NCBI GenBank assembly: GCA_965276685.1
Contig: OZ255623.1
Span: forward strand, 1,935,642 to 1,999,641
Origin: Acidocella sp.
Lineage (GTDB): Bacteria; Pseudomonadota; Alphaproteobacteria; Acetobacterales; Acetobacteraceae
Length of the DNA: 64,000 nt
Direction: 5' to 3'
Under the pieces are notes generated by a model, which searched no databases, was not told the DNA's origin, and worked only from the letters and a program-made list of their open reading frames with translations. Made by a program: the position numbers and the translations under genes. This document shows, one piece after another, positions 32,189 to 58,693 of this stretch. The first letter of the stretch is position 1. Each line of letters begins with the position of its first letter.

Positions 32189-32259
32189 TGGGGGATAGTT
32201 TAGCGGTAGAACTCCTGGCTCTGACCCGGGCAGCCTTGGTTCGAATCCAGGTCCCCCAG
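32189..32259 (+). tRNA. tRNA-Gln (anticodon CTG); CCA not encoded
   Basis: TGGGGGA/TCCCCCA acceptor stem, D-arm, CTCTGAC anticodon loop, GGTTCGAATCC T-loop. Confidence 0.93.
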
Positions 32260-35223: not shown

Positions 35224-36612
35224 TTAAAACCCTCCGGCTTTCGCGGCCAGTTCCTGCGCTGAGAAGAAAGAATCCGGCAGCTGCGCGATGATCTGATAAG
35301 ATGGCCGGCTTGAAGAATTGGTCGCAGAGGTAATCGAACAAACATTGGAGTGCAGATCATAGGTTATGAAGAAAGAGCCAGCGACATGGCAGGGAATGTC
35401 CGGCATGAGCGCCGGGACCATATGCTGGAATTTCCACAAGCCGTTTTGGGCGTCATAAATTTCACCCAGCAGTGCAGCACCCCCGTCTTCATCGGTATAG
35501 ACCATACGCCGCGCATCGACATTTCGTGCGCTGGACTTCACTGTCATCTCGACGACCCTCACACGGTGAAGTTCCCACCTCACGATATCCGGATTAACGA
35601 AATGTGCTGAAAACTGCGTTCCCGGCTCCGCATTCCATGCCTTATTGGAATTATACGGAACAAACATCTCCTTTACGCCGAGATAATTGCAGTCGTATTC
35701 ATCGAGCTTGCCGGAAAAGATATTAAATTCGTCCCAGTTCACCGCTCCGCCGGTAAGCGAGTTTGGTGTATCGTATTGCAACTCCGGCGCGCTACGCACC
35801 CGACGCTCGCCTTGGAGATATTCATAACCCTGAACCGGCGTGAGATAAGCATTCAGCGGCGTCCGCGTAACTATAAAGCCGCCGGCTTCATAGGGCGGCG
35901 CAATGGGGTCGAGAAATGCTTCGAGGTAAAGGCCGCCCCAGCTGTTCTGTCCATTTTCGAAATAATAAGGATATTGGACCCACGAACGGTTCACACCTTC
36001 GAGAACAACTTCCCCAGAGGCGGTAATCGTATAACTAAACGTTTCGTTCTTGAACGTTGTTCCAGCCCAGGCAAGCAGATGATTCCACATAACCTGATGG
36101 CCATTTGCCGGAATCGGGAAGGGGATGCCGCCATAGGCGTTGGCAACCGCGTTACCATCATTCGTCAACTGCGCGCTTGATGCGTTTTTATAGATGGAGT
36201 CATAAATCCATTGCGGCGCGCCGGAGGTACGATGTGTCGGGAATACCTCCATTTTATAGTCCGGAAATTTCTGGAACATCGCCAACTGCCCTGGCGATAG
36301 CTTGTCCTTGTACTGCTCCGCGTTGGAGGCTGTAATGGTGAACAGCGCTGCGTCATTCAAAATTGGCGGAATGGGCCGCACCTCTCCCGATGTATAATCA
36401 GGCGGCACAGTGGTGTAGCCGCCGGTCCATGCCGGGATCGTGCCGTCTGCATTTCCGGCCCGCACTGCCCCAAACGGCGTCAGCGCACCTTTCAAATCAT
36501 TAGCGGTATACTGCGCCGTTTGCGCGCGGGACAGCTTCGGCGCAGCCGCAACCGCAACCGCAACCGTCGCGGCGGAAGCCATAAGAATAGAACGTCGATT
36601 CATTTTTACCAT
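35224..36612 (-). CDS. DUF1329 family protein, second copy
   Basis: NRRSILM signal; LTPFGAVRAGNADGTIPAWTGG, ERRVRSAPEL.YD; collinear with 17843-19234. Confidence 0.88.
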   Translation of the reverse strand: MVKMNRRSILMASAATVAVAVAAAPKLSRAQTAQYTANDLKGALTPFGAVRAGNADGTIPAWTGGYTTVPPDYTSGEVRPIPPILNDAALFTITASNAEQYKDKLSPGQLAMFQKFPDYKMEVFPTHRTSGAPQWIYDSIYKNASSAQLTNDGNAVANAYGGIPFPIPANGHQVMWNHLLAWAGTTFKNETFSYTITASGEVVLEGVNRSWVQYPYYFENGQNSWGGLYLEAFLDPIAPPYEAGGFIVTRTPLNAYLTPVQGYEYLQGERRVRSAPELQYDTPNSLTGGAVNWDEFNIFSGKLDEYDCNYLGVKEMFVPYNSNKAWNAEPGTQFSAHFVNPDIVRWELHRVRVVEMTVKSSARNVDARRMVYTDEDGGAALLGEIYDAQNGLWKFQHMVPALMPDIPCHVAGSFFITYDLHSNVCSITSATNSSSRPSYQIIAQLPDSFFSAQELAAKAGGF

Positions 36613-36637
36613 TTTTGCTTTCCTCCTTGGAATATTC

Positions 36638-38314
36638 TCAGAACGTCCGCTCGACGTTAAACGAAACGAAATCGCGGTCGGCTGCCGGGTCGCGAGCAGG
36701 CGGCGCGATGTAGCGCGTGTAGCTGAATCCGCCCGTCCATTTGTTCAGATAAATACCAGATACTCCGATCGTCAGATCGCCGCCGCGATCGATGCCGGTA
36801 CTGTTAAACACAATCGTATCTGGCGCGCGGCCAGAGAAATTCCAGCCCAGGCCAATGCTTGGCGTGACTTCCAAACCCGGCAGAACCTCAAAATAGGTAA
36901 CCGAACCAATTGTGCGCAGACCCTCAGCCATGTGCCCGGATTCGGCCCGGTCATAATTCTCTTCATTCTTCGTGATCGAGAGCAGACTATCAGCCGCGGC
37001 CTCGCCAATCACCGACGAACTATCCCAGAACGACGTTTTCGGCCCCAGGTAGATTTCCGAAACCTGGTAATGCAGCGTATTGCCAATCGCGTAAAGCGCA
37101 TGATTTGAGTTGTTGGCTTGCTCCCCTGGCGCCACGCTCACCGAGCTATTGAGGTTTTCGTTCGTCCGGATGGAAACCTCGCCCGCAAAATTTACCGGGC
37201 CATACGTCGCGCTCGATGACGCACCAAATATCTGAATACCATCGGCATAAACCACTCTATAAGTCCCGAGCGCAAGCGCAGCCGGTGAACCTGCCGCAGT
37301 ACCAGCGACGGGTTTCGGTCCGGTCGGGTTGACATAGGTATAAATGGTCGGCGCGGTGTTATTGAATTGCAGGCCATAGAGGCCAAAATCCGCCGTTGTA
37401 TTATTTGGGTTCCAGTGCAATGAACCGCCGAACTGCCCGGTATTGGATCCGCTCATATCCTTCGCGCGATAGAAATAAAGCGCCGAGCCGGGCTTCGCCG
37501 CGCTGATATAAGGCGAAGCACTAGCGGCATAAATGCGTTGAGCACCTGCGCCGAGGACATCGGTGAAGGAGAAGTAGCTACCAACCGGCGCCAGCAGTTC
37601 GCTTTCCCATTCAAATTGATAGTACGCGCTGACTGCGATCGTCGGAGTAAGCTGCACGCTTAGCGATGCTTGACCGACCGGCAAAAACAGGTTTTTAGCC
37701 TGCGTGTTCGGCACGCTGCTCGCGCGCTCGATGTCGATCGGCGACTGGCCAGCGGCAATGCCGTTCGCGGCAAACAGCAGACTTTCGCCGAACTGATTTA
37801 CGAAGCGTCCAACGCGCAAAGTGACCGGCACCGGGCCTAGATTACCGGAACCATAAACAAACAGGTTTCGCAGTTCGATGTTGCGGCCCGCCTGTGTCAC
37901 CGTCTCGCTGGTGAATTTACTGGCAGGCGTCGAAGCCGGATTATAGGTCGAACCGTTGGTGCTTTGCGTCTTCTGGTTATAAACCGTGTCGTAGAAACTA
38001 TCGATCGTGGTGTCGAAACCAAATCCATTATCGCTGATATCGAACTTGGAAAGCAGATCGACGCGATTAGAGACGATGCCCGAGCGCAGGCTGTCATCGC
38101 CGTCGTTAGTGTTTCCAGCGTTAACCTTAGGGCCGCCAACTTCAGGGTTAAACGGGGCGACGCGCTCAACTACGGAATACTGCAAAGTATTGTCAAAGCG
38201 CACATCCACGCCATTGTCGAACTGATAATCGAACGCGTGCGCGGGATGCCCCAAGGCGAGCAAAGCCACGGAGGCAACGCCTGAAAGCAATAGATTTTTC
38301 TTTTTCATCGACAT
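36638..38314 (-). CDS. DUF1302 family outer-membrane protein, second copy
   Basis: FDYQFDNGVDVRFDNTLQY, C-terminal DRDFVSFNVERTF; collinear with 19248-20933. Confidence 0.88.
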   Translation of the reverse strand: MSMKKKNLLLSGVASVALLALGHPAHAFDYQFDNGVDVRFDNTLQYSVVERVAPFNPEVGGPKVNAGNTNDGDDSLRSGIVSNRVDLLSKFDISDNGFGFDTTIDSFYDTVYNQKTQSTNGSTYNPASTPASKFTSETVTQAGRNIELRNLFVYGSGNLGPVPVTLRVGRFVNQFGESLLFAANGIAAGQSPIDIERASSVPNTQAKNLFLPVGQASLSVQLTPTIAVSAYYQFEWESELLAPVGSYFSFTDVLGAGAQRIYAASASPYISAAKPGSALYFYRAKDMSGSNTGQFGGSLHWNPNNTTADFGLYGLQFNNTAPTIYTYVNPTGPKPVAGTAAGSPAALALGTYRVVYADGIQIFGASSSATYGPVNFAGEVSIRTNENLNSSVSVAPGEQANNSNHALYAIGNTLHYQVSEIYLGPKTSFWDSSSVIGEAAADSLLSITKNEENYDRAESGHMAEGLRTIGSVTYFEVLPGLEVTPSIGLGWNFSGRAPDTIVFNSTGIDRGGDLTIGVSGIYLNKWTGGFSYTRYIAPPARDPAADRDFVSFNVERTF

Positions 38315-38518
38315 ATCTCCCATTATTTTTGTCCTCGTTAAGTCCGGCTAACCTGAATCTCTCGCAAAAACGTAAACGCGATACGAGAATGAGTTTGCGG
38401 AAAATCCCGGATGTTGTTTCCTCAATTTCGCTTCGTCATTATTCGTTAAAAATTTCCTACCCCCACCGCCCGATATGTGTAAAATAGATATTTGCATCAT
38501 GGCCTATAGGAAATCTCA

Positions 38519-40086: not shown

Positions 40087-40452
40087 TTGTTCCCCCTGTT
40101 ATCTTCGTTTGCCGGATGCTTCTTGCTGAAATCCGGCAATGTGAGGGTGTTTTAAGTTATTTGTAAAATAGATAATGCTATTATCCCATATAGAAACAGT
40201 CTATATAGCGCTCTCCTCATCAATGAACAGTAAATTAAACTTGGTGCGTGTACCGCCGCCGTGCTGCTAAACGTACGGTTGTCTGGCTATATTTGCTTTT
40301 CCCTTCCCGTCAAAAAGGTGCACAACCGCATTCAAACCTCGCATTGTTTCTGTTCCAATGGTAAGGTATCGTCCATGATCGTAATATTTCTTAAGGTTTC
40401 CAGCCGTTCCGCAACCTGTGCCTAAGCGCGCGGAGATCATTTAGAGCTTGAT

Positions 40453-42630
40453 ATGACCCGAATGCAGGCGCCCACCATCCTTATCGTCGATGATAGCGTC
40501 ACCAACAGGCGTATCTATTCAAGGCTGGCACACAGGTTGAACGCCGAGGTCAACGTGCTTGCGTTCGGCCACCCGCAAGAGGCGGTGGACTGGCTCGCCC
40601 ATAGCTCCGCGGACCTCATCATCACGGACTATAAAATGCCGGGCATAACCGGCGATGAGCTCGTGCGCCGGGTCCGCTCGGGCCATCGCGACCCGGACAT
40701 GCCGATCATCGTCGTTACCGCCTATGACGACCGGCAGTTCCGCGTCATGTCGCTGGAGGCCGGGGCGACCGATTTCCTGCTAAGCCCCGTCGATCATACC
40801 GAGTTCGTGACCAGGGCGCGCAACCTTCTCAAGCTCAGGATGCAGCAGCAAATGCTGGTCCAGCGTGCCGATCTGCTGGAACAGCGGCTGGAGATCAGCC
40901 TCACCGCGCAGGAGCAGCTGTTGCGGGAAAGCCGGGAAGCCTTGGCGCAGGTGATCGACACCGTACCGGCGCTCATCAGCGCCGCGGACCGGGACGGCAA
41001 ATGCGTTTTCGTCAACGCCTCTCAGGCCGCCGCCGCCGGCGCATCGCCTGCCGAGCTCGCCGGCAGGCCGGTGGATCTCATTTTCGGGGCAGATCGCGCG
41101 GCATCCAGCCGGCGGCTGGACAGCCTGGTGATCGAAAGCGGCCAGCCGGCCCCGATGCGGGAGGAGGAAGTTCCCGGCGGCGCGGGGGAAATGCGCGTCT
41201 ATCTTACAAGCAAGGTGCCGCTGCGCGACAGCAAGGGGGTCACCACCAGCGTCCTCACAACCTCAGTCGATATCACGGAGCGCCGGGCTGCCGAGCGGCG
41301 TTTGCAGCACATGGTTAACCACGACTCATTGACCAGCCTGCCCAACCGCACCATGCTGCGGGACCGGCTGCGGCGGGAGCTGGCCAGGGGGCGCCGCGGC
41401 GACAAACAATTTGCCCTGCATTTCATCGATCTCGATCGTTTCAAGGCGATCAACGACGGGCACGGCCATGAAGGCGGCGACAAGCTGCTCTGCCGCGTCG
41501 CCGAGGCGCTCTCCAACATCGTGGGCGAGAACGACACGGTCGCGCGTATCGGCGGGGATGAATTCGCCATTCTCCAGCCCGGCATAACCGGCCCGGAAGG
41601 CGCGGTGACGATGGCCGGCAAAATCATCGCGGCGCTCAACCAGCCGGCCGACAAGCCCAATGCGCTCTCGGTCGGCGCCAGCATCGGCATCACCCTCTCG
41701 CCGCAGGACGGCAACGAGCCGGACGCGCTGCTCAAAAATTCAGATCAGGCGATGTATTCGGCGAAAAAAATCGGCGGCAATACCTGGCGTTTTTTCGCGG
41801 CCGAAATGCGTCCGAAGGCGAGCCAGGGCGCACAGCTGGAGGCCGACCTACGCGGCGCGCTCGCGCGGCAGGAGTTTGTGCTGCATTATCAGCCGCAGGT
41901 CGATCTGCGGCGCCGGGCGATTGTCGGCGCGGAGGCATTGCTTCGCTGGGAGCGCCCTGGCCACGGGCTGCTGCGGCCGGAAAGTTTTCTCGGCCTGGCG
42001 GAGGAAACCGGCCTCATCGTGCCGATCAATGAGTGGGTGTTGAAGACCGCCTGCGCGCAAGCCGCGGCCTGGGAGGCGGCGGGCATCTCCGGGCTTCGCA
42101 TGTCGGTCAACCTCTCGCCTATCCAGTTCCGCCGCCGCAGCGCCTGTAGCGCCGTCGCGGTGGCGATCGCCGATACGGGCGTGACGCCATCCCTGCTGGA
42201 CCTCGAACTCACCGAGAGCATCCTGCTGGGAGACGCGGAGGACGTCGTCGCGCAGCTGCATGGCTTGCGGGCGCTCGGCGTTACCCTCTCGCTGGATGAT
42301 TTCGGTACAGGCTATTCCTCCTTCAGCTACGTCCGCAACTTCCCCATCGACCGGCTAAAGATTGACCGGTCTTTCGTGCAAGGCCTGGGCAGCAATGAGA
42401 GCGATCTCGCCATCGTGCGGACGATCATCGACCTTGGCCATATCATGCGCCTGCGCGTGGTGGCGGAGGGTGTGGAAACCGCCGCGCAATCCGCGCTTTT
42501 GCTGGCGGAGGGCTGTGACGAGGTCCAGGGCTTCTATTTCAGCGAGGCCGTGCCGCCTGAAATTTTCCTGAAACGGCTGCTGGCGCGGCAAATCGGCATC
42601 CATGCCCTTTCCGCGGCGGCGGCTGGGTGA
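40453..42630 (+). CDS. Response regulator REC-PAS-GGDEF-EAL with RpfG-like receiver
   Basis: ILIVDD, ITDYKMP, NLLKLR..QRADLLEQRL linker, PAS, DLDRFK..ND, GGDEF, YQPQ, EAL, ELTE, DDFGTGYSS, KIDRSF, AEGVE. Confidence 0.92.
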   Translation: MTRMQAPTILIVDDSVTNRRIYSRLAHRLNAEVNVLAFGHPQEAVDWLAHSSADLIITDYKMPGITGDELVRRVRSGHRDPDMPIIVVTAYDDRQFRVMSLEAGATDFLLSPVDHTEFVTRARNLLKLRMQQQMLVQRADLLEQRLEISLTAQEQLLRESREALAQVIDTVPALISAADRDGKCVFVNASQAAAAGASPAELAGRPVDLIFGADRAASSRRLDSLVIESGQPAPMREEEVPGGAGEMRVYLTSKVPLRDSKGVTTSVLTTSVDITERRAAERRLQHMVNHDSLTSLPNRTMLRDRLRRELARGRRGDKQFALHFIDLDRFKAINDGHGHEGGDKLLCRVAEALSNIVGENDTVARIGGDEFAILQPGITGPEGAVTMAGKIIAALNQPADKPNALSVGASIGITLSPQDGNEPDALLKNSDQAMYSAKKIGGNTWRFFAAEMRPKASQGAQLEADLRGALARQEFVLHYQPQVDLRRRAIVGAEALLRWERPGHGLLRPESFLGLAEETGLIVPINEWVLKTACAQAAAWEAAGISGLRMSVNLSPIQFRRRSACSAVAVAIADTGVTPSLLDLELTESILLGDAEDVVAQLHGLRALGVTLSLDDFGTGYSSFSYVRNFPIDRLKIDRSFVQGLGSNESDLAIVRTIIDLGHIMRLRVVAEGVETAAQSALLLAEGCDEVQGFYFSEAVPPEIFLKRLLARQIGIHALSAAAAG

Positions 42631-44753
42631 GAATGCTTAAGCAGATCGCGCTGCCTTTACACTGGGCCGCAAGCCGGCTGCGCGGGCGGCCGGATAGCGA
42701 GCACGAGATGAGCCTGAACCGGCTCGTCGTCGCCATCGTCATCGTTTTCGTGCTGCTGGCAAGCTCGAACATCCACGGAACCTCCGGCGCGCTCATCGGC
42801 ATGGCGGTCTATATCGCCCTCGCGCTTGCCGTGCTCGGCCATATTTTGCTCTACCCGAACATCTCTCAGGCCCGGCGGCTCTTCGCCTTGCTGCTCGACT
42901 GTAGCTTTCTCTCCCTGGAGCTGCATCTTGGCGGCGGCGTCGCGGCGCTGTTCTTCCTCATCTATCTCTGGATTGTTCTCGGCAACGGCTTTCGCTTCGG
43001 CCTTGGCTTTCTCGCCGTTTCGGCGCCTGTCGCGGCATTCAGCTTCGGTGTGGTCGTGGCCACAACCCCGTTCTGGTACCGGCAGATGCATCTGTCGGAA
43101 GGCCTGCTCATCGGCCTCATCGTCCTGCCCGCCTATGCCGGAACCCTCATCCGCAAGCTTTCCCTGGCCACCCGCGCCGCTGAGGAAGCCAGCAAGGCAA
43201 AAAGCCTCTTCCTCGCCAGCGTCAGCCACGAACTTCGCACGCCGCTCACCGCCATAGTCGGCATGACCGGCCTTCTGAAATCCGCCCGGCTCGATGCGGC
43301 GCAAAAAGAGATGGTCGAGACAATCGGCGTCGCAACCCGCTCGCTGCAATCGCTCATCAATGGCCTGCTAGATCTTTCTCGGATCGAGGCCGGGCGTATG
43401 CCGAGCGCGGCGGAGGAGTTCGACCTTCCGGCCTTGCTGGACGATGTCCGCCGGATGTTCGAGACCCAGCTGCAAAGCAAAAAGCTAAGTCTGGACATCC
43501 AGATATCGCCGCGCACCCCGTCTCACCTGCTGGCAAGCCGCCAGCATCTGCTCGACATCCTTCTCAATTTAACAGCCAACGCCGTCAAATTCACCGCAAC
43601 GGGCGGAATCACCATCACGGTCGATGCCGAGCGGGGCGAACCAGAGAACCATATCCTGTTGAAGATCGCGGTTTCCGATACCGGCATCGGCATCGCGGCT
43701 AAGGACCAGGCGCATATCTTCGAGAATTTCACCCAGGCGAATGAGACGATCCTGAACCGCTTTGGCGGCACAGGCCTTGGGCTGGCCATCTCACAGCAGC
43801 TTGCCGGGCTCATGGGCGGGGCTATCACGGTCGAAAGCGAACTCGGCAAAGGCAGCGTCTTTCGCTTTGCCATCAAGGCCCAGGCAATCGCATCGGCGGA
43901 AACCCAACCGGTCCTTGCGCCCGTCTCTGAGTCCATCGCAACCGCATCACCGCAACGCCGCCGCGTGCTGCTGGTCGATGACAACCGGATCAACCAGCGC
44001 GTCTTCTCCCGCATTCTGGAGTCTGCCGGGCACGACGTTCTCGTCGCGGAAAACGGTGAGCTCGCCCTCGACATCCTCGAGGAAGAAGCCAAACACCTCG
44101 ATATCGTGCTCATGGACTTCAACATGCCGGAGCTGGACGGGCTGGAAGCTACCAAGCTGTTCCGCGCCATGTCCATCGGCGACAACCGGCTGCCCATCAT
44201 CGGTCTCACGGCGGATGCGGCGGCATTGTCCGATGGCCGCTGGCGCGAAGCGGGAATGGACGGCTGCCTGATCAAACCTGTCGATCCGGCGGCTTTTCTG
44301 GCCACGGTCGAAACCATGGCACGCGCCGCCGTCTATCAGCCCGCCAGTCCGGTAATGGCGCTGCACGAGCACCCCCGCTTCCGCCCGGCAAGCGTTCCGG
44401 CACTGGACGAAATGATTCTTGGCAATTTGCGGCAGCTGGGAGACGATGCGTTTATCGACGAGTTGATGTCGGACTTCCTTTCGGATGCAGCCGATCTCAT
44501 CGATACGCTGGTGCAGGCGGCACGCCGGGGAGACAGCCCAGCCTTCCGCAACCATGCCCATGCGCTCCGGAGCAGCGCCGCCAATGTCGGCGCCACGGCG
44601 CTTGGCGAATTATGCGCGCCCTTCGCCGGCCAGCGCGGCGGCGAGCTTCAGGCGCGGGCGGCTGACTTTGCCAGCCGCGCGCAGGCGGAACTCTGGAGGA
44701 CGCGGGAAGCGATTGCCTCCCTTGATTCCTCCCGCCGGGCCTCTAATCAATAA
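42627..44753 (+). CDS. rpfC: Hybrid sensor histidine kinase, RpfC-like (TM sensor-HisKA-HATPase-REC-HPt)
   Basis: RLRGRPDSEH N-terminus, about five TM helices, WIVLGNGFRFG, SHELRTPL, REC, HAHALRSSAANVGA HPt; 4-bp overlap with the upstream regulator. Confidence 0.82.
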   Translation: MRMLKQIALPLHWAASRLRGRPDSEHEMSLNRLVVAIVIVFVLLASSNIHGTSGALIGMAVYIALALAVLGHILLYPNISQARRLFALLLDCSFLSLELHLGGGVAALFFLIYLWIVLGNGFRFGLGFLAVSAPVAAFSFGVVVATTPFWYRQMHLSEGLLIGLIVLPAYAGTLIRKLSLATRAAEEASKAKSLFLASVSHELRTPLTAIVGMTGLLKSARLDAAQKEMVETIGVATRSLQSLINGLLDLSRIEAGRMPSAAEEFDLPALLDDVRRMFETQLQSKKLSLDIQISPRTPSHLLASRQHLLDILLNLTANAVKFTATGGITITVDAERGEPENHILLKIAVSDTGIGIAAKDQAHIFENFTQANETILNRFGGTGLGLAISQQLAGLMGGAITVESELGKGSVFRFAIKAQAIASAETQPVLAPVSESIATASPQRRRVLLVDDNRINQRVFSRILESAGHDVLVAENGELALDILEEEAKHLDIVLMDFNMPELDGLEATKLFRAMSIGDNRLPIIGLTADAAALSDGRWREAGMDGCLIKPVDPAAFLATVETMARAAVYQPASPVMALHEHPRFRPASVPALDEMILGNLRQLGDDAFIDELMSDFLSDAADLIDTLVQAARRGDSPAFRNHAHALRSSAANVGATALGELCAPFAGQRGGELQARAADFASRAQAELWRTREAIASLDSSRRASNQ

Positions 44754-44779
44754 TAGCCGACCTGACCCGGCTATATTTT

Positions 44780-45751
44780 TCATTCCGCCGCCATCATCAC
44801 CGGCAGCGCAGGGTGCGTGGCCGCCAGGCGACGGTCCTGCGCCGCGCGCAGCCGGTCCATTTTGCGTAAATCCGCTTCCGTCAGGTTCAGCGCCGCTTCC
44901 GCCCAAATATCCACGACATCGCGCAGCTCATCCAGCGTTACCGGGTTTACCCGGCGGCGGGCCTGGTAAGTCGCCCGGTGTGCGTTGAACTTGCGATTAT
45001 GCCGGGCGATATAATCCTGCACCGCCTCCGGGCCCTGGCCATCCTCCGCCAGAACATCCACCACGCCCATCTCATGCAGTTCCTCAGCGGTATAAATCCG
45101 CCCTGAGAGGATCATCGCCTCCGCCCGCGCACGGTCCATTCGGCGGGAAAGGAAGCTGTAAGCGCCCATGCCGGGAAACAGATTGAACAGAATCTCCGGC
45201 AGGCCCATCTTCGCGCTCCGCTCGGCCACGATCATATCGAACGACAAGGCATGTTCAAACCCGCCGCCGAGCGCGTCGCCCTGCACCAGCGCCATGGTCA
45301 CAACCGGCACGTCGAAAGCGACCGTATTGCGATGGATAGCCTCGACCGCGACATGGCCGTAGCGGCGCAACGCCCCCAGGTCGCCCTGGCGAATGCGCTG
45401 GGCGAAATGCCCTAGGTCGCCGCCCAGGTTGTAAATTCCCGGCACGGCGGAGGCCATGACAAACCAGGAGAACGGGCGCGGCGCGCCGGTTGGCACGGTA
45501 GCGAAGGCGCTGCCGATCGCGTGCTGCATCTCGCTTACGTCATTCATCAACTCATGCGTATAGGTCGGCAGCCCCTGGGGCCGCATGAAGCACCAACAGG
45601 TCTCGGCCTGGGTATCGATTTCAAGTTCAAGGTTGTCGTAACGTCGTTGCGCCATCTCCTGCGCTGGGTTCCACTGGGCATCGCTGCTCTGCTGGGCAAA
45701 GCTCGTTTTGCCAAGGGCCGTAAGGTTGGTTGCTGTTCGTACAAAAGTCAT
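44780..45751 (-). CDS. rpfF: DSF synthase (crotonase family), RpfF-like
   Basis: YNLGGDL, LVQGDALGGGFE, MGLPEILFNLFPGMGAYSFL, ILSGRIYTAEEL; convergent with rpfC. Confidence 0.88.
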   Translation of the reverse strand: MTFVRTATNLTALGKTSFAQQSSDAQWNPAQEMAQRRYDNLELEIDTQAETCWCFMRPQGLPTYTHELMNDVSEMQHAIGSAFATVPTGAPRPFSWFVMASAVPGIYNLGGDLGHFAQRIRQGDLGALRRYGHVAVEAIHRNTVAFDVPVVTMALVQGDALGGGFEHALSFDMIVAERSAKMGLPEILFNLFPGMGAYSFLSRRMDRARAEAMILSGRIYTAEELHEMGVVDVLAEDGQGPEAVQDYIARHNRKFNAHRATYQARRRVNPVTLDELRDVVDIWAEAALNLTEADLRKMDRLRAAQDRRLAATHPALPVMMAAE

Positions 45752-45922
45752 CCCGGTTCTCCATGTTTGCGCGCTAACTTCACGGAGCCGGACCATCCTC
45801 GCCCGCCCTTGTTAGCTGCGGGTTAACTTAGTGCGCGAAACAATGTTTGGAGAAGGAAATATTTATTACCTCTATTAAATAGTACGCCGCAGCTCCGTAA
45901 GCTCGAAAAGCGTTTCATATTA

Positions 45923-47014: not shown

Positions 47015-47977
47015 CTAAAACAGCTCCATCTCGCCCCCGGCCTGCTTCGCGCGCGCGATGCTGCCGTCTTCCACCAGCAACTCATAGCACTGCACCTGGT
47101 TGCGCCCCCTGTGCTTAGCGACATACAGCGCCTCGTCGGCCCGGCCAAAGGCGCAAGCCCCCGTGTCCCCCGGCAATATCATGCTAAAGCCAATGCTCAC
47201 CGTCACCTGCCCCACCTGCGGAAACACCGCCTCCTGCACGGCGGCACGGAAACAATCCAGCGCCACCAGGGCCTCCTCCTGGCTGGCATCGCTCAGCATC
47301 ACGACAAATTCCTCCCCGCCGAAGCGGAACAGCCCATCGCGCCCCGGAAAACTCTCCGCGATCAGGCGGGAGAGCAGAATCAGCACCTCATCGCCGTAAG
47401 GGTGGCCGAACTGATCGTTAATGCGCTTGAAGAAGTCGATATCCGCCACGGCAATCGCCGTCTGTATTCCGCTCCCGGCGCCATTCTGCTTGAAGAATGC
47501 GTTGAACGTCCGGCGGTTCAGCAGCCCGGTCAGCTCGTCCCGCGCGCCATAGTCCAGCAGGCCGAGATGGTTGCGATAGACCCGCACCAGCCCATCCACC
47601 AGATGCTCCTGCAACTTCTGCAACGGCGAGGGTCGCAGCACCTCCAGCAGCCCCGTCACCTCGCGGTCGTTGCATAGCGGAAACACATGGCGCGTCATCG
47701 CTGCCGCCGCCGGGCCCCATATATAGCGTTGCGCCGCATAGCACTCGCGCCATTCCGGCGGCGCATGGGCCAGGAGTATTTCTTCGCCCGGCTTATGCCC
47801 CCGCGGCAGTGTCAAGCGCTCGCGCAGCCACCGGCCTTCTCCGCCGCCCATCGCCCGCCACACCGAAAGCCTGGCCGCCCCCGCCAGTTCAAAAATCGCA
47901 CGGGCGAGCGACGCCTCCAGCGCGTCATGGTCACGTAGATGCGTCAGCTCCGCCACGGTGTCGATAAGTTCTGTCAT
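47015..47977 (-). CDS. Diguanylate cyclase (GGEEF) with N-terminal GAF-like region
   Basis: DELTGLLNRR, DIDFFKRIND, RFGGEEF, ADEALY.AK..GRN. Confidence 0.9.
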   Translation of the reverse strand: MTELIDTVAELTHLRDHDALEASLARAIFELAGAARLSVWRAMGGGEGRWLRERLTLPRGHKPGEEILLAHAPPEWRECYAAQRYIWGPAAAAMTRHVFPLCNDREVTGLLEVLRPSPLQKLQEHLVDGLVRVYRNHLGLLDYGARDELTGLLNRRTFNAFFKQNGAGSGIQTAIAVADIDFFKRINDQFGHPYGDEVLILLSRLIAESFPGRDGLFRFGGEEFVVMLSDASQEEALVALDCFRAAVQEAVFPQVGQVTVSIGFSMILPGDTGACAFGRADEALYVAKHRGRNQVQCYELLVEDGSIARAKQAGGEMELF

Positions 47978-57850: not shown

Positions 57851-58693
57851 ATGTTCGATCCACCTTCCCCACTTCGCGACGAAGGCTCCGTCCGAGAACT
57901 TCGCCAGCGCAATGCCCGGCGCGAAACCACAGAGCGCCGCCGCGTCACCCAGCATCTGCGTCATGCTCTGGCCGATGACGGGTTCGTGCTACAGTACCAG
58001 CCGTTGGTCTGCTTAAGCTCCGGCCTCATCCGCGGCGCGGAATCGCTCCTCCGGCTCAGGCATCACCGCCGTGGCCTTGTCTCCGCCAGCCATTTCATGC
58101 CCATCACCGAGCATTCCGATGTCATCACCGGCATCGGCGGCTGGATACTGCAAAACACCTGCCGGGACGCAGCCAGCTGGCCGGATTGCGTCTCGGTCGC
58201 CGCCTCTCTTTCCCTCCGGCATTTGCGGAGCGGGCAGCTTGTCCGCCAGTTGCTCGAAGCCGTCGGCGCCTCCGGCCTCGCGCCGCACCGGCTGGAATTG
58301 CAACTGACGGAAGCCATGCTGATCGACGACAACGAGGATGCGATCTTCAGCTTGCGAGCTTTGCATGGCATCGGTGTCCGGCTGGCGCTGAATAATTTCG
58401 GCCTGGGCTATGCGAGCCTTAGCGCGGTCAAGCGCCTGCCGCTCAGCACATTGCGGCTGGACCGCTCATTGATCCAGAGCCTCGGCGAAATGCCGGACAA
58501 TACCGGCATCATCCGCGCCGCGATCGAGGCCGGGCACGCGCTCGGCTGCACCGTGCTGGCAGATGGCGTGGAAAACGAGGTGCAGTTCCAGCAGCTCGGG
58601 CGGCTTGGCTGCGACGAAGGCCAGGGGCCGTATTTCGGCCCGGCGGTCTCAGCGGGCGAGATCAGCGCCATGCTCGGCGCGCCACACGAATAA
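57851..58693 (+). CDS. Stand-alone EAL-domain protein with degenerate catalytic motifs
   Basis: YQP, ESL, QLTE, NNFGLGYASL, RLDRSL, ADGVE, QG.YF. Confidence 0.85.
   Translation: MFDPPSPLRDEGSVRELRQRNARRETTERRRVTQHLRHALADDGFVLQYQPLVCLSSGLIRGAESLLRLRHHRRGLVSASHFMPITEHSDVITGIGGWILQNTCRDAASWPDCVSVAASLSLRHLRSGQLVRQLLEAVGASGLAPHRLELQLTEAMLIDDNEDAIFSLRALHGIGVRLALNNFGLGYASLSAVKRLPLSTLRLDRSLIQSLGEMPDNTGIIRAAIEAGHALGCTVLADGVENEVQFQQLGRLGCDEGQGPYFGPAVSAGEISAMLGAPHE

What the first reader, a model, noticed from the sequence alone, without database searches (positions are those of the whole stretch)
40453..45751. Hybrid DSF quorum-sensing locus: RpfF and RpfC with an RpfG-type receiver fused to PAS-GGDEF-EAL
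Seen: the layout is regulator -> rpfC <- rpfF as in Xanthomonas. The regulator's REC and following linker (NLLKLR...QRADLLEQRL) resemble RpfG, but the output is PAS-GGDEF-EAL with intact GGDEF and EAL motifs rather than HD-GYP. Established: DSF is sensed either by RpfC/RpfG (HD-GYP) or by RpfR (PAS-GGDEF-EAL, PAS binds the fatty acid). Inference: this protein merges the two architectures and may integrate phosphorelay input with direct ligand sensing and switch between c-di-GMP synthesis and degradation. I do not know of a characterised DSF system in Acetobacteraceae-like bacteria, but cannot exclude prior description.
Basis: partly seen in the sequence, partly recalled or inferred. Interest (0 to 1): 0.78.

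Follow-up and report, generated by a model that had tools for sequence, protein, structure and literature searches.

The report
Alphaproteobacterial DSF locus with GGDEF-EAL regulator
This Acidocella/Acidiphilium-like bacterium carries a fatty-acid (DSF-type) cell-to-cell signalling locus in which the usual output enzyme RpfG has kept its receiver domain but swapped its HD-GYP domain for PAS-GGDEF-EAL, a conserved alphaproteobacterial variant that I could not find described in the paper library I searched.

Summary
The window holds three intact genes:
- 40453-42630 (+): a REC-PAS_4-GGDEF-EAL response regulator.
- 42627-44753 (+): an RpfC-type hybrid kinase. It has a 5-TM input domain followed by HisKA, HATPase, REC and HPt.
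- 44780-45751 (-): an RpfF-clade crotonase.

The layout matches a Xanthomonas-type rpfG-(rpfH)-rpfC <- rpfF locus that I fetched for comparison.

The regulator's receiver is orthologous to the RpfG receiver. It falls in a clade with 100/97 support, it is a reciprocal best hit, and it is the only receiver of this type in the genome. The genome has no HD-GYP domain.

GGDEF and all EAL catalytic motifs are conserved in 60-61 of 61 family members. The canonical receiver Lys is replaced by Ser.

RpfC keeps four of the five residues shown to dock DSF in Xanthomonas. RpfF keeps both catalytic Glu and the oxyanion Gly.

About 60 genomes share the triad, but none of its flanking genes.

The PAS-GGDEF-EAL part shows no specific kinship to RpfR, and direct fatty-acid binding by the PAS is unsupported.

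Most likely mechanism: signal made by RpfF, then RpfC phosphorelay, then the regulator, then c-di-GMP turnover.

Verdict: a new variant of a known kind, found several times before by this scan, with no paper found in the library searched.

The parts
40087..40452 (+). AT-rich 366-bp intergenic region upstream of the regulator gene. It is the presumed promoter/control region of the regulator-rpfC operon (inferred, no consensus promoter found).
   Evidence: Sequence read. The promoter scan found no convincing sigma-70 site on the + strand.
40453..42630 (+). Response regulator, 725 aa: RpfG-type REC, long helical linker, PAS_4, GGDEF, EAL.
   Evidence: Pfam; translation. The family alignment shows D13, D14, D59, T89, GGDEF and the EAL motifs conserved. 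Full-length AF2 model: mean pLDDT 84, helices 115-147 and 149-170 between REC and PAS.
40477..40818 (+). Receiver (REC) domain, residues 9-122. The phospho-acceptor is Asp59. The canonical Lys is replaced by Ser111 (FLLSPVD).
   Evidence: Ser is found in 56/61 family members. In the own genome 20 of 22 RECs have Lys. Orthology to the RpfG REC.
40957..41289 (+). PAS_4 domain, residues 169-279; ligand unknown.
   Evidence: Pfam. AF2 model pLDDT 92.9. Foldseek top hits are VqmA, TodS PAS1, LOV and BvgS PAS. Conservation pattern.
41317..41781 (+). GGDEF domain, residues 289-443. The RIGGDEF motif is intact and there is no RxxD I-site (GEND instead).
41842..42546 (+). EAL domain, residues 464-698, with all catalytic motifs present.
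   Evidence: Best PDB match is the MorA GGDEF-EAL structure 4rnh, E 5.5e-119.
42627..44753 (+). RpfC-type hybrid sensor kinase, 708 aa from the GTG or 706 aa from the ATG at 42633. Its start overlaps or abuts the regulator's stop codon (GGGTGAGAATG).
42627..43166 (+). RpfC/RpfH-type membrane input domain, residues 1-180, with the sensor motif RPDSEHEM just before the first TM helix and the LWIVLGNGFRFG motif.
   Evidence: tblastn to the Xanthomonas-type rpfH (32%, E 4e-21) and to the rpfC N-terminus (30%, E 4e-18). Alignment; motif census. The essential residues R15, D17, S18, E19 and Q22 of Xcc RpfC are taken from PMC5391125.
43197..44672 (+). Transmitter and phosphorelay modules of RpfC: HisKA (43197-43394), HATPase (43542-43880), REC (43965-44309) and HPt (44460-44672).
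   Evidence: Pfam. The H-box SHELRTPL, the REC Asp in VLMDFNMP and the HPt HALRSSAANVG are seen.
44753..44774 (.). Inverted repeat (ATAGCCG-N8-CGGCTAT) in the 26-bp gap between the convergent rpfC and rpfF. It looks like a shared bidirectional terminator; the + strand reading is followed by TTTTT.
44780..45751 (-). RpfF-clade crotonase, the putative DSF-family synthase, 323 aa from Met16 of the longest ORF. The catalytic Glu are E181 and E201 in longest-ORF numbering.
   Evidence: NCBIfam PRK08788 scores 379 bits (cut-off 177). PDB 3m6m, Xcc RpfF, matches at E 7e-52 with both Glu aligned. Alignment; start codon.

Best explanation
This is a three-gene cell-to-cell signalling module of the DSF (cis-2-unsaturated fatty acid) family.

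Proposed mechanism, step by step:
1. RpfF (44780-45751, -) makes a diffusible fatty-acid signal from an acyl-ACP intermediate. This is inferred from clade membership and catalytic residues.
2. The signal is sensed at the N-terminal, membrane-adjacent sensor segment of the RpfC-type kinase (42627-44753). This is inferred from homology of the input domain and from 4 of 5 docking residues being conserved.
3. RpfC autophosphorylates and relays the phosphoryl group His -> Asp -> His(HPt) to Asp59 of the co-transcribed regulator (40453-42630). This is inferred from three facts: the genes are translationally coupled, the REC is orthologous to the RpfG REC, and it is the only such REC in the genome.
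4. The regulator changes cellular c-di-GMP through its GGDEF-EAL output, rather than through the HD-GYP domain of RpfG.

In both known DSF systems the signal activates c-di-GMP hydrolysis. By analogy, I think phosphorylation most likely turns on the EAL phosphodiesterase. The intact GGDEF domain, which lacks an I-site, would then act either as a cyclase in the unphosphorylated state or as a GTP-sensing regulatory domain. The direction of the switch is a guess.

The PAS and its flanking long helices most likely serve as the dimeric transmission module between REC and output.

In evolutionary terms this is an output-domain swap on an RpfG-derived receiver. Sister alphaproteobacterial loci carry REC-PAS-histidine kinase instead.
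For: RpfF:
- PRK08788 scores 379 bits against a cut-off of 177. The same model also covers the canonical Xanthomonas-type RpfF and the Leptospirillum RpfF.
- PDB Xcc RpfF 3m6m matches at E 7e-52 and Burkholderia RpfF 5fus at 1e-46, whereas ordinary crotonases reach only about 1e-15.
- E141, E161 and the G86 and G138 equivalents are conserved (roles taken from PMC9040811).

RpfC:
- The domain order is identical to RpfC.
- The input domain hits the Xanthomonas-type RpfH and RpfC at E 4e-21 and 4e-18.
- The RPD(S/T)EHEM motif keeps R15, D17, S/T18 and E19 of the DSF-docking residues.

Regulator:
- In the REC tree the RpfG-type clade has 100/97 support and excludes the 21 other RECs of the genome. 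The GGDEF-EAL RECs are monophyletic (99/95) and nested in an HD-GYP grade.
- Best hits are reciprocal.
- The genome has no HD-GYP domain.
- GGDEF and the EAL catalytic motifs are conserved in 60-61 of 61 members.

Coupling of the three genes:
- The regulator's stop codon overlaps or abuts the rpfC start.
- The triad is conserved in about 60 loci while no flanking gene is.
- The distance matrices of the three proteins correlate with r 0.87-0.95.
- rpfF and the RpfC-type input domain are both single-copy in the genome.

Precedent:
- A Leptospirillum rpfFCG cluster of similar divergence is associated with detected DSF-family compounds (PMC8357829).
Against:
- P0003 fails the narrow NCBIfam RpfF equivalog cut-off (207.6 against 550) and is only about 41% identical to a Xanthomonas-type RpfF. 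The product could therefore differ.
- Gln22 of the RpfC docking motif is Met throughout the alphaproteobacterial clade.
- The receiver lacks the canonical Lys (Ser111), which normally contacts the phosphoryl group, so its phosphorylation behaviour may be atypical.
- There is no rpfB next to rpfF.
- Nothing in the sequence shows which of the two c-di-GMP activities is switched on.
- The correlated distance matrices could partly reflect shared species history.
Confidence: 0.72

Rival explanations
1. Dual-input regulator. The PAS_4 domain binds the fatty-acid signal directly in the cytoplasm, as the PAS domains of RpfR and RpfS do. The regulator would then integrate phosphorelay from RpfC with direct ligand binding and toggle between c-di-GMP synthesis and hydrolysis.
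For: - Both known cytoplasmic DSF sensors use PAS domains, and that of RpfS is a PAS_4 (PMC4504480).
- The PAS of P0001 is also a PAS_4.
- It is a conserved partner of this REC across GGDEF-EAL, GGDEF-only and kinase outputs.
- Its modelled fold is closest to PAS domains that bind small hydrophobic or autoinducer ligands, namely VqmA and TodS PAS1.
Against: - There is no specific sequence similarity to any solved PAS (best E 2e-4) or to any PAS in two Xanthomonas-type genomes (best E 1e-5).
- RpfR is not among the top 50 fold matches, and the scores of all the PAS hits are similar.
- The helical middle of the PAS is the least conserved part and carries deletions and insertions in L002, L050 and L054. 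The N-cap, the beta-sheet and the flanking helices are the conserved parts, which fits a transmission/dimerisation role.
Confidence: 0.13
2. The module is not quorum sensing by a DSF-type signal. The crotonase would make or process a different acyl compound, or RpfC would sense an environmental fatty acid or membrane cue. The locus would then report lipid or nutrient status rather than cell density.
For: - The narrow RpfF equivalog cut-off is not met.
- The Q22M change in the sensor motif is clade-wide.
- The alphaproteobacterial RpfF has an N-terminal extension of about 35 aa and a conserved C-terminal AAE tail, both absent from canonical RpfF.
- There is no rpfB partner.
- The window is rich in fatty-acid and aromatic catabolism genes: an ECH_2 hydrolase lies next door, and aromatic-catabolism operons are mentioned in earlier first-reader notes on this genome.
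Against: - The whole catalytic signature of RpfF is kept.
- Synthase and sensor are inherited together as a unit in about 60 genomes without any conserved metabolic neighbour. That is the pattern of a signal/receptor pair, not of a catabolic enzyme.
Confidence: 0.1
3. The regulator's receiver is not phosphorylated in the usual way because it lacks the conserved Lys. On this reading the protein is controlled by protein-protein contact with RpfC or RpfF, or it acts mainly as a c-di-GMP-sensing trigger enzyme or scaffold, as RpfR does with GtrR, rather than as a net producer or degrader.
For: - Ser replaces the canonical Lys in 56/61 members (Thr in 4, Ala in 1), while 20 of 22 RECs in this genome keep Lys.
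- RpfC is known to signal also by receiver-domain protein interaction (He et al. 2006, cited in PMC13711827).
- RpfR doubles as a c-di-GMP sensor (PMC12838280).
Against: - D13, D14, D59 and T89 are invariant in 61/61 members, which argues that the phospho-acceptor pocket is under selection.
- RpfG homologues from other Gammaproteobacteria also lack Lys (they have Arg) yet sit in canonical rpfGC loci.
- All catalytic residues of both output domains are conserved.
Confidence: 0.05

Closest known systems
Xanthomonas campestris RpfF / RpfC / RpfG (rpfGHC operon convergent with rpfF)
   Same: - Same gene order and orientation.
- RpfF-clade synthase with the same catalytic residues: about 41% identity to a Xanthomonas-type RpfF whose sequence is 83% identical to PDB 3m6m.
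- RpfC with the same five-module architecture and a homologous input domain (30-32% identity), including R15, D17, S18 and E19 of the DSF-docking segment.
- A regulator receiver and alpha5-linker orthologous to those of RpfG (39% identity).
- Output acts on c-di-GMP.

   Different: - The output is PAS_4-GGDEF-EAL instead of HD-GYP.
- The receiver Lys is replaced by Ser.
- Gln22 of the sensor is replaced by Met.
- There is no rpfH and no adjacent rpfB.
- RpfF has an N-terminal extension and a C-terminal AAE tail.
- The host is an alphaproteobacterium with no HD-GYP domain at all.

Burkholderia cenocepacia / Cronobacter turicensis RpfF-RpfR
   Same: - A DSF-family synthase lies next to a PAS-GGDEF-EAL protein whose c-di-GMP phosphodiesterase is the signalling output.
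- P0003 matches RpfF structures 5fus and 6dgn at E about 1e-46.
   Different: - RpfR is a stand-alone cytoplasmic receptor with an N-terminal FI (RpfF-interaction) region and no receiver, and it works without RpfC.
- Here the N-terminus is an RpfG-type receiver and an RpfC kinase is present.
- The PAS-GGDEF-EAL part shows no specific kinship to RpfR or PdeR: PRK10060 scores 392 bits against a cut-off of 782, and DibA and MorA score higher.
Alphaproteobacterial rpfF-rpfC loci with a REC-PAS-histidine kinase in the rpfG slot
   Same: - Same RpfF and RpfC types.
- Same RpfG-derived Lys-less receiver plus PAS module: 44-57% REC identity.
- Same gene order.

   Different: - The output is a HisKA/HATPase or HWE kinase instead of GGDEF-EAL.
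- In an even sample of Alphaproteobacteria this kinase variant is the commoner one: about 21 loci against 3 with GGDEF-EAL.
Leptospirillum rpfFCG cluster (DSF-family compounds detected in cultures)
   Same: - RpfF of similar divergence: a Leptospirillum MAG RpfF is 46% identical to P0003 and scores the same on PRK08788.
- RpfC-type kinase.
- Acidophilic habitat shared with Acidocella and Acidiphilium.

   Different: - The regulator is a canonical REC-HD-GYP RpfG.
- The operon is unidirectional (PMC8357829).

Membership tests
RpfF (DSF synthase, crotonase superfamily) | Crotonase (ECH) fold and membership of the RpfF-containing family, not merely of generic enoyl-CoA hydratases | tested here: met
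   - Pfam ECH_1/ECH_2 match.
- NCBIfam PRK08788 scores 379 bits against a cut-off of 177. The same model scores a canonical Xanthomonas-type RpfF at 412 bits and a Leptospirillum RpfF at 380 bits.
- PDB RpfF entries match at E 1e-46 to 7e-52, whereas generic crotonases reach 5e-15 or worse.
RpfF (DSF synthase, crotonase superfamily) | Score above the curated NCBIfam equivalog model for RpfF (NF053515) | tested here: not met
   The score is 207.6 bits against a cut-off of 550. Only the Xanthomonas-type protein passes (579.7). The gammaproteobacterial, Leptospirillum and Inquilinus forms also fail at 223-254 bits, so the model is narrow.
RpfF (DSF synthase, crotonase superfamily) | Catalytic Glu141 and Glu161 and oxyanion Gly86 and Gly138 (Xcc numbering) | tested here: met
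   GGFEHAL and GLPEIL align with GGFEAAL and GLPEVL of 3m6m. NLGGDL and ALGGGFE are conserved. The residue roles are as stated in PMC9040811.
RpfF (DSF synthase, crotonase superfamily) | Produces a cis-2-unsaturated fatty acid | not testable with these tools
   This needs LC-MS of an expression strain or a deletion mutant.
RpfC (DSF sensor hybrid kinase) | Domain order: multi-TM input, HisKA, HATPase, REC, HPt | tested here: met
   Pfam. The H-box, the REC Asp and the HPt His are present.
RpfC (DSF sensor hybrid kinase) | Input domain homologous to that of Xanthomonas RpfC/RpfH | tested here: met
   Residues 1-180 match rpfH at 32% identity (E 4e-21) and the rpfC N-terminus at 30% (E 4e-18) in the Xanthomonas-type locus L089. 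The alignment runs through all the TM segments. The domain is single-copy in the genome.
RpfC (DSF sensor hybrid kinase) | DSF-docking residues Arg15, Asp17, Ser18, Glu19 and Gln22 next to TM1 (PMC5391125) | tested here: inconclusive
   The window has RPDSEHEM: R, D, S and E are kept and Gln22 is replaced by Met. The family motif is RPD(S/T)EHEM in most members, and the related gammaproteobacterial loci keep Q. The mapping of residue numbers onto this protein is my alignment-based inference.
RpfG (REC-HD-GYP response regulator) | RpfG-type receiver domain and alpha5-linker | tested here: met
   Clade support is 100/97 together with HD-GYP RpfGs from Xanthomonas-type and other Gammaproteobacteria, excluding the 21 other RECs of this genome. 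Best hits are reciprocal. The linker aligns.
RpfG (REC-HD-GYP response regulator) | HD-GYP phosphodiesterase output domain | tested here: not met
   P0001 has no HD or HD_5 match. The whole genome has no HD_5 match and no tblastn hit to an RpfG HD-GYP domain. The protein is therefore not an RpfG, although it sits in RpfG's place.
RpfR (FI-PAS-GGDEF-EAL DSF receptor) | PAS-GGDEF-EAL architecture next to rpfF | tested here: met
   Pfam. Here rpfC lies between the regulator gene and rpfF.
RpfR (FI-PAS-GGDEF-EAL DSF receptor) | N-terminal FI (RpfF-interaction) region; no receiver domain; works without RpfC (PMC12838280) | tested here: not met
   Residues 1-150 are a receiver plus linker helix, and an RpfC kinase is encoded in the same operon.
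RpfR (FI-PAS-GGDEF-EAL DSF receptor) | PAS domain specifically related to the fatty-acid-binding PAS of RpfR | tested here: inconclusive
   No RpfR chain appears among the PDB sequence hits up to E = 1 or among the top 50 Foldseek matches. I could not confirm that an RpfR PAS chain is in the PDB copy. Ligand binding cannot be tested here.
Bifunctional GGDEF-EAL c-di-GMP enzymes | Intact GG(D/E)EF active site with its metal and GTP-binding residues, and intact EAL catalytic motifs | tested here: met
   RIGGDEF, DLDRFKxIND, EAL, N553, E585, E588, D615, D616, K636, E672, E675 and Q692 are conserved in 60-61 of 61 family members. The best solved relative is the MorA GGDEF-EAL structure 4rnh, E 5.5e-119.
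Bifunctional GGDEF-EAL c-di-GMP enzymes | RxxD inhibitory I-site five residues before GGDEF | tested here: not met
   The window has GEND, and the position is not conserved in the family.

The most novel reading that the evidence does not exclude
Alphaproteobacteria are usually thought of as acyl-homoserine-lactone users. On this reading they possess a widespread, uncharacterised DSF-family fatty-acid signalling system: RpfF-like genes occur in about 8% of evenly sampled species.

The core of the system would be a new kind of adaptor, an RpfG-derived, Lys-less receiver fused to a PAS_4 domain. This adaptor would take two inputs at once: phosphoryl transfer from RpfC, which reports the extracellular signal, and direct binding of the internalised fatty acid at the PAS. 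It would pass the result to interchangeable outputs (GGDEF-EAL, GGDEF alone, histidine kinase, hydrolase).

In this window the output would be a true bidirectional c-di-GMP switch. The clade-wide Q22M change in the RpfC sensor would mark a signal chemically distinct from the known DSFs.
Probability: 0.12. Interest if true: 0.8.

Novelty: new variant of a known kind. Interest (0 to 1): 0.58.

Why it matters
- **Taxonomic reach.** DSF signalling is still described as a gammaproteobacterial (and Burkholderiales) trait with three operon architectures (mSphere 2026, PMC13711827). This locus and its roughly 60 relatives add a fourth, alphaproteobacterial architecture. It occurs in acidophiles (Acidocella), soil and water bacteria (Kaistia, Ancylobacter, Xanthobacter, Roseomonas) and the cystic-fibrosis-associated genus Inquilinus.
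- **Evolution of the circuit.** The RpfC-to-receiver connection was kept while the c-di-GMP output was swapped from a hydrolase only (HD-GYP) to a potential maker and breaker (GGDEF-EAL), or to a second kinase. This is a natural experiment in rewiring a quorum-sensing circuit.
- **Survey bias.** Surveys that require an RpfG orthologue miss these systems. One example is the acidophile survey that included Acidiphilium (PMC9040811).
- **Testability.** The idea is directly testable in non-pathogenic, cultivable strains.

Tried and rejected
- **Conserved neighbours.** I looked for rpfB, efflux genes or regulators. None of the seven flanking genes of the window recurs beside the triad in relatives.
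- **An NCBIfam model for RpfG or RpfR.** None appeared among the matches, so I used trees and reciprocal searches instead.
- **Specific PAS kinship to RpfR or RpfS.** I tried PDB sequence search, search of two Xanthomonas-type genomes and Foldseek. All gave only generic PAS similarity.
- **Rfam scan of the window.** I looked for a c-di-GMP riboswitch or other RNA near the locus and found only a tRNA at 32189-32259.
- **Promoter scan upstream of the regulator.** It gave no convincing sigma-70 site.
- **The idea that GGDEF-EAL is the dominant alphaproteobacterial output.** I rejected it after even sampling, which showed REC-PAS-kinase to be commoner. The 80 loci are biased towards close relatives of P0003.
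- **The longest-ORF start of rpfF (45796).** I rejected it in favour of 45751.
- **Literature.** Seven full-text searches and six papers read gave no description of this architecture. The library lacks most subscription-journal papers, so prior description cannot be excluded.

Full report
**1. What is in the sequence**

Three long ORFs fill 40453-45796.

- **P0001 (40453-42630, +, 725 aa)** has four Pfam domains: Response_reg (residues 9-122, E 5e-22), PAS_4 (169-279, 2.5e-16), GGDEF (289-443, 2.6e-43) and EAL (464-698, 1.8e-70).
- **P0002 (42627-44753, +, 708 aa)** has about 180 hydrophobic N-terminal residues with no Pfam or NCBIfam match. These are followed by HisKA, HATPase_c, Response_reg and Hpt.
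- **P0003 (44780-45796, -)** is a crotonase (ECH_1/ECH_2).

Gene junctions:
- The regulator's TGA overlaps a GTG and lies 2 nt before an ATG of the kinase gene (GGGTGAGAATG), so the two genes are translationally coupled.
- The kinase gene and the crotonase gene converge on a 26-bp gap. The gap holds an inverted repeat, ATAGCCG-N8-CGGCTAT, followed by T5.
- The real start of the crotonase gene is Met16 at 45751. A GGAGAA site lies 5 nt upstream and relatives start at the conserved MTFVR.

**2. The synthase**

- P0003 passes the NCBIfam family PRK08788 (379 bits, cut-off 177) but not the RpfF equivalog NF053515 (207.6 against 550).
- I checked what these two models mean. A Xanthomonas-type RpfF passes both (580 and 412 bits). 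RpfF homologues from Thiohalobacter, a Chromatiaceae MAG, a Leptospirillum MAG and Inquilinus behave like P0003 (about 370-380 on PRK08788 and 223-254 on the equivalog).
- PRK08788 is therefore the broad RpfF family, and the equivalog model is specific to xanthomonads.
- Among solved structures the four best matches are RpfF proteins: Xcc 3m6m (E 7e-52), 7zq7, and Cronobacter/Burkholderia 6dgn and 5fus (about 1e-46). Next comes a gap down to ordinary crotonases (5e-15 and worse). Pseudomonas DspI (5wyb) reaches 1.5e-11.
- Both catalytic Glu (GGFEHAL, GLPEIL) and the Gly of NLGGDL and ALGGGFE are conserved. Their roles are as summarised in PMC9040811.
- The alphaproteobacterial forms carry an N-terminal extension of about 35 residues and a conserved C-terminal ...AAE tail that canonical RpfF lacks.

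**3. The kinase**

- Public sources (JGI, some NCBI records) name many homologues 'RpfC'. I tested this directly.
- Using the printed 3m6m sequence, I located a genome (G385) whose RpfF is 83% identical to that of Xcc and fetched its locus, L089.
- L089 reads rpfG (REC-HD-GYP), rpfH, rpfC, then a convergent rpfF of 289 aa.
- Residues 1-180 of P0002 match rpfH at 32% identity (E 4e-21) and the rpfC N-terminus at 30% (E 4e-18). The cytoplasmic part matches at 34% over 516 residues.
- The alignment runs through all membrane segments and shares the LW..GNG.R.G motif.
- Cai et al. 2017 (PMC5391125) showed that DSF binds the 22-residue N-terminal sensor of Xcc RpfC, and that Arg15, Asp17, Ser18 (Thr tolerated), Glu19 and Gln22 are essential.
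- L089 has REDSEHAQ at this place and the window has RPDSEHEM. Across the family the motif is RPD(S/T)EHEM in most members, while related gammaproteobacterial loci keep Q at the last position.
- Four of the five docking residues are thus conserved, and Gln22 is Met throughout the alphaproteobacterial clade.
- The RpfC-type input domain and the RpfF-type crotonase are both single-copy in the genome.

**4. The regulator's receiver is an RpfG receiver**

- In gammaproteobacterial relatives of the locus (Thiohalobacter L078, Chromatiaceae L073), the gene in the same position is REC-HD_5/HD, that is, RpfG.
- Their REC plus linker finds P0001 as the clear best hit in the window's genome: 113 and 108 bits, against 63.5 and 74.7 for the next hit.
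- In the reverse direction, P0001's REC finds the rpf-locus RpfG as the best hit in two genomes and as a co-best hit in Thiohalobacter. The next receivers score about 60 bits.
- An HMM of the family REC scores P0001 at 185 bits and the other 21 receivers of the genome at 63 or less.
- In a maximum-likelihood tree all RpfG-type receivers form a clade with 100/97 support that excludes those 21. The clade contains the Xanthomonas-type and other HD-GYP forms, the PAS-kinase forms and the GGDEF-EAL forms.
- Within that clade the 61 GGDEF-EAL receivers are monophyletic (99/95) and nested within an HD-GYP grade, with the PAS-kinase forms just outside them.
- The alpha5-linker also aligns: TRARNLLKLRMQQQMLVQRADLLEQRL against LRARCYNLLQLRQQTENVKQRALSLEQRL.
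- The genome has no HD-GYP domain at all. It has 13 GGDEF and 11 EAL domains.

**5. Unusual receiver and intact outputs**

- In 61 full-length family members, D13, D14, D59 and T89 are invariant. The canonical Lys before the cis-Pro is Ser in 56 members, Thr in 4 and Ala in 1.
- Xanthomonas-type RpfG keeps Lys (DFLVKPI). The Thiohalobacter and Chromatiaceae RpfGs have Arg.
- In the window's genome 20 of 22 receivers have Lys.
- GGDEF is conserved in 61/61 members, and every EAL catalytic motif in 60-61/61. The RxxD I-site is not conserved (the window has GEND).
- The GGDEF-EAL part is 46% identical to two paralogues in the same genome. Its best solved relative is the MorA GGDEF-EAL structure (4rnh, E 5.5e-119). 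Its best NCBIfam scores are DibA (451 bits) and PRK10060 (392 bits), both far below their cut-offs.
- The output therefore looks like ordinary GGDEF-EAL stock, not a piece of RpfR.

**6. The PAS domain**

- Sequence searches gave only generic similarity: the best PDB hit is a PAS/HD-GYP protein (9rc0) at E 2e-4, and the best hit in two Xanthomonas-type genomes has E 1e-5.
- An AlphaFold2 model built from a 54-sequence alignment is confident (pLDDT 92.9).
- Its Foldseek neighbours are VqmA, TodS PAS1, short LOV proteins and BvgS PAS, all with similar scores. No RpfR chain is in the top 50.
- Within the family the N-cap helix, the first strands and the last three strands are strongly conserved. 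The helical middle varies and carries deletions (L002, L050) or an insertion (L054).
- The full-length model (mean pLDDT 84, pTM 0.43) shows REC alpha5 continuing into helices 115-147 and 149-170 before the PAS, and a helix 275-289 leading into GGDEF.
- I read the PAS mainly as a dimeric transmission module. Ligand binding is not excluded.

**7. Distribution and evolution**

- Of 80 genome loci that encode relatives of P0003, about 60 carry the full triad with the same gene content.
- The carriers are Acidocella, Kaistia, Ancylobacter, Xanthobacter, Chelatococcus, Roseomonas/Pseudoroseomonas, Caldovatus, Inquilinus, Sabulicella, Roseococcus, Rubritepida, Acidisoma, Pseudovibrio, Breoghania and Beijerinckiaceae.
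- No flanking gene of the window is shared with them.
- Pairwise distance matrices of the three proteins over 52 loci correlate with r 0.87-0.95 (Mantel p 0.001). This fits inheritance as a unit, although shared species history contributes to the correlation.
- The Acidocella-type receivers group with those of Ancylobacter and Kaistia (order Hyphomicrobiales), to the exclusion of Roseomonas-type receivers (98/85). This suggests some lateral transfer.
- In an even sample of 401 alphaproteobacterial species, 32 genomes in 26 of 308 genera have an RpfF-like gene at E <= 1e-50. The three other sampled genera of the window's own family have none.
- I fetched the 31 foreign loci. About 21 have REC-PAS-histidine kinase in the rpfG slot, 3 have REC-PAS-GGDEF-EAL and none has HD-GYP. 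The rest are truncated contigs or solo rpfF genes.
- A search of 1.84 billion representative proteins with the REC-PAS module gave the following for 50 N-terminal REC-PAS proteins: GGDEF in 30 (with EAL in 19), HisKA/HATPase in 16, HWE kinase in 1 and an alpha/beta hydrolase in 1.
- The window's variant is thus one of several outputs attached to the same RpfG-derived receiver-PAS adaptor.
- For comparison, RpfF homologues at E <= 1e-40 occur in 63 of 400 sampled Gammaproteobacteria.

**8. Literature**

- No paper in the library combines RpfF or RpfC with this architecture or with these genera.
- A 2026 survey states that rpfF is known in three operon architectures, and it sampled only Gammaproteobacteria (PMC13711827).
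- A 2015 review lists RpfCG and RpfR as the two core perception routes, with RpfS as an accessory PAS_4 kinase (PMC4504480).
- A survey of 83 acidophile genomes that included Acidiphilium reported complete DSF systems only in Leptospirillum and Acidithiobacillus (PMC9040811). Its annotation table lists an RpfG orthologue (K13815) among the DSF components.
- Leptospirillum cultures contain DSF-family compounds (PMC8357829).
- Earlier notes of this scan had already reported the same triad in other genomes and reached the same reading. I re-derived each point independently here.

**9. Verdict**

- The locus is best explained as a DSF-family signalling module whose RpfG-type receiver drives a GGDEF-EAL output.
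- Shown by sequence: the orthology of all three components to the Rpf system, the intactness and conservation of the catalytic motifs, the absence of HD-GYP, and the modular inheritance.
- Inferred: the nature of the signal, phosphotransfer from RpfC to Asp59, and c-di-GMP as the output.
- Guessed: that phosphorylation favours hydrolysis.
- It is a new variant of a known kind. It is of solid interest to people who work on DSF and c-di-GMP, but it is neither a new principle nor a first sighting within this scan.

Noticed in passing
L037:11749-12654 (-) and L037:12911-13741 (-); similar copies in L040, L042, L044 and L048: Inquilinus loci carry one or two extra short genes (276-301 aa) between rpfC and the regulator gene. 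Each consists of an RpfC-type input domain plus a HisKA domain, with no ATPase. This recalls rpfH of Xanthomonas, but with a phospho-acceptor helix added.
   Followed up: partly
RpfC relatives, e.g. L001, L005, L009, L037, L073, L078 (alignment); window 43880-43965 is the short version: Most alphaproteobacterial and non-xanthomonad gammaproteobacterial RpfC homologues (about 830-850 aa) have an insert of about 130-150 residues between HATPase and REC. The insert is missing in the window's RpfC, in its closest Acidiphilium-like relatives, in a Beijerinckiaceae MAG and in the Xanthomonas-type RpfC. No Pfam domain was found in it.
   Followed up: partly
L089:6588-9320 (+): In the Xanthomonas-type comparison genome G385, the rpfH-like and rpfC parts lie in one uninterrupted 910-codon frame, with no stop codon between them.
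   Followed up: no
window 47015-47977 (-) and about 57950-58642 (+): The window holds two further c-di-GMP genes: a 320-aa GGDEF protein 1.2 kb beyond rpfF and a 294-aa EAL-only protein. Neither is conserved next to the triad in relatives.
   Followed up: partly
window 44780-45751 (-); alignment: RpfF of the alphaproteobacterial clade has a weakly conserved N-terminal extension of about 35 residues (MTFVR...) and a conserved C-terminal tail ending in (M/V)(M/V)AAE. Both are absent from the Xanthomonas-type, gammaproteobacterial and Leptospirillum RpfF. Their function is unknown.
   Followed up: no
L025 and L065 (one 'Roseococcus sp.' MAG); L051 ('Janthinobacterium lividum' MAG); L015 ('Mesorhizobium sp. 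BR1-1-16'): One Roseococcus MAG holds two triads on different contigs, one Kaistia-like and one Roseococcus-like. A Janthinobacterium MAG holds an Acetobacteraceae-like triad. A 'Mesorhizobium' record is nearly identical to Kaistia. These are either mis-binned or mis-named contigs, or cases of lateral transfer.
   Followed up: no
G001:C1:2549481-2549903 (-) (Thiohalobacter genome): A second RpfG-type receiver (43% identity to the P0001 REC, 111 bits) lies in a 265-codon frame far from the rpf locus of that genome.
   Followed up: no
window 35224-38323 (-): A DUF1329/DUF1302 gene pair lies upstream of a LysR regulator and a SnoaL-like gene. It is not linked to the triad in other genomes.
   Followed up: no
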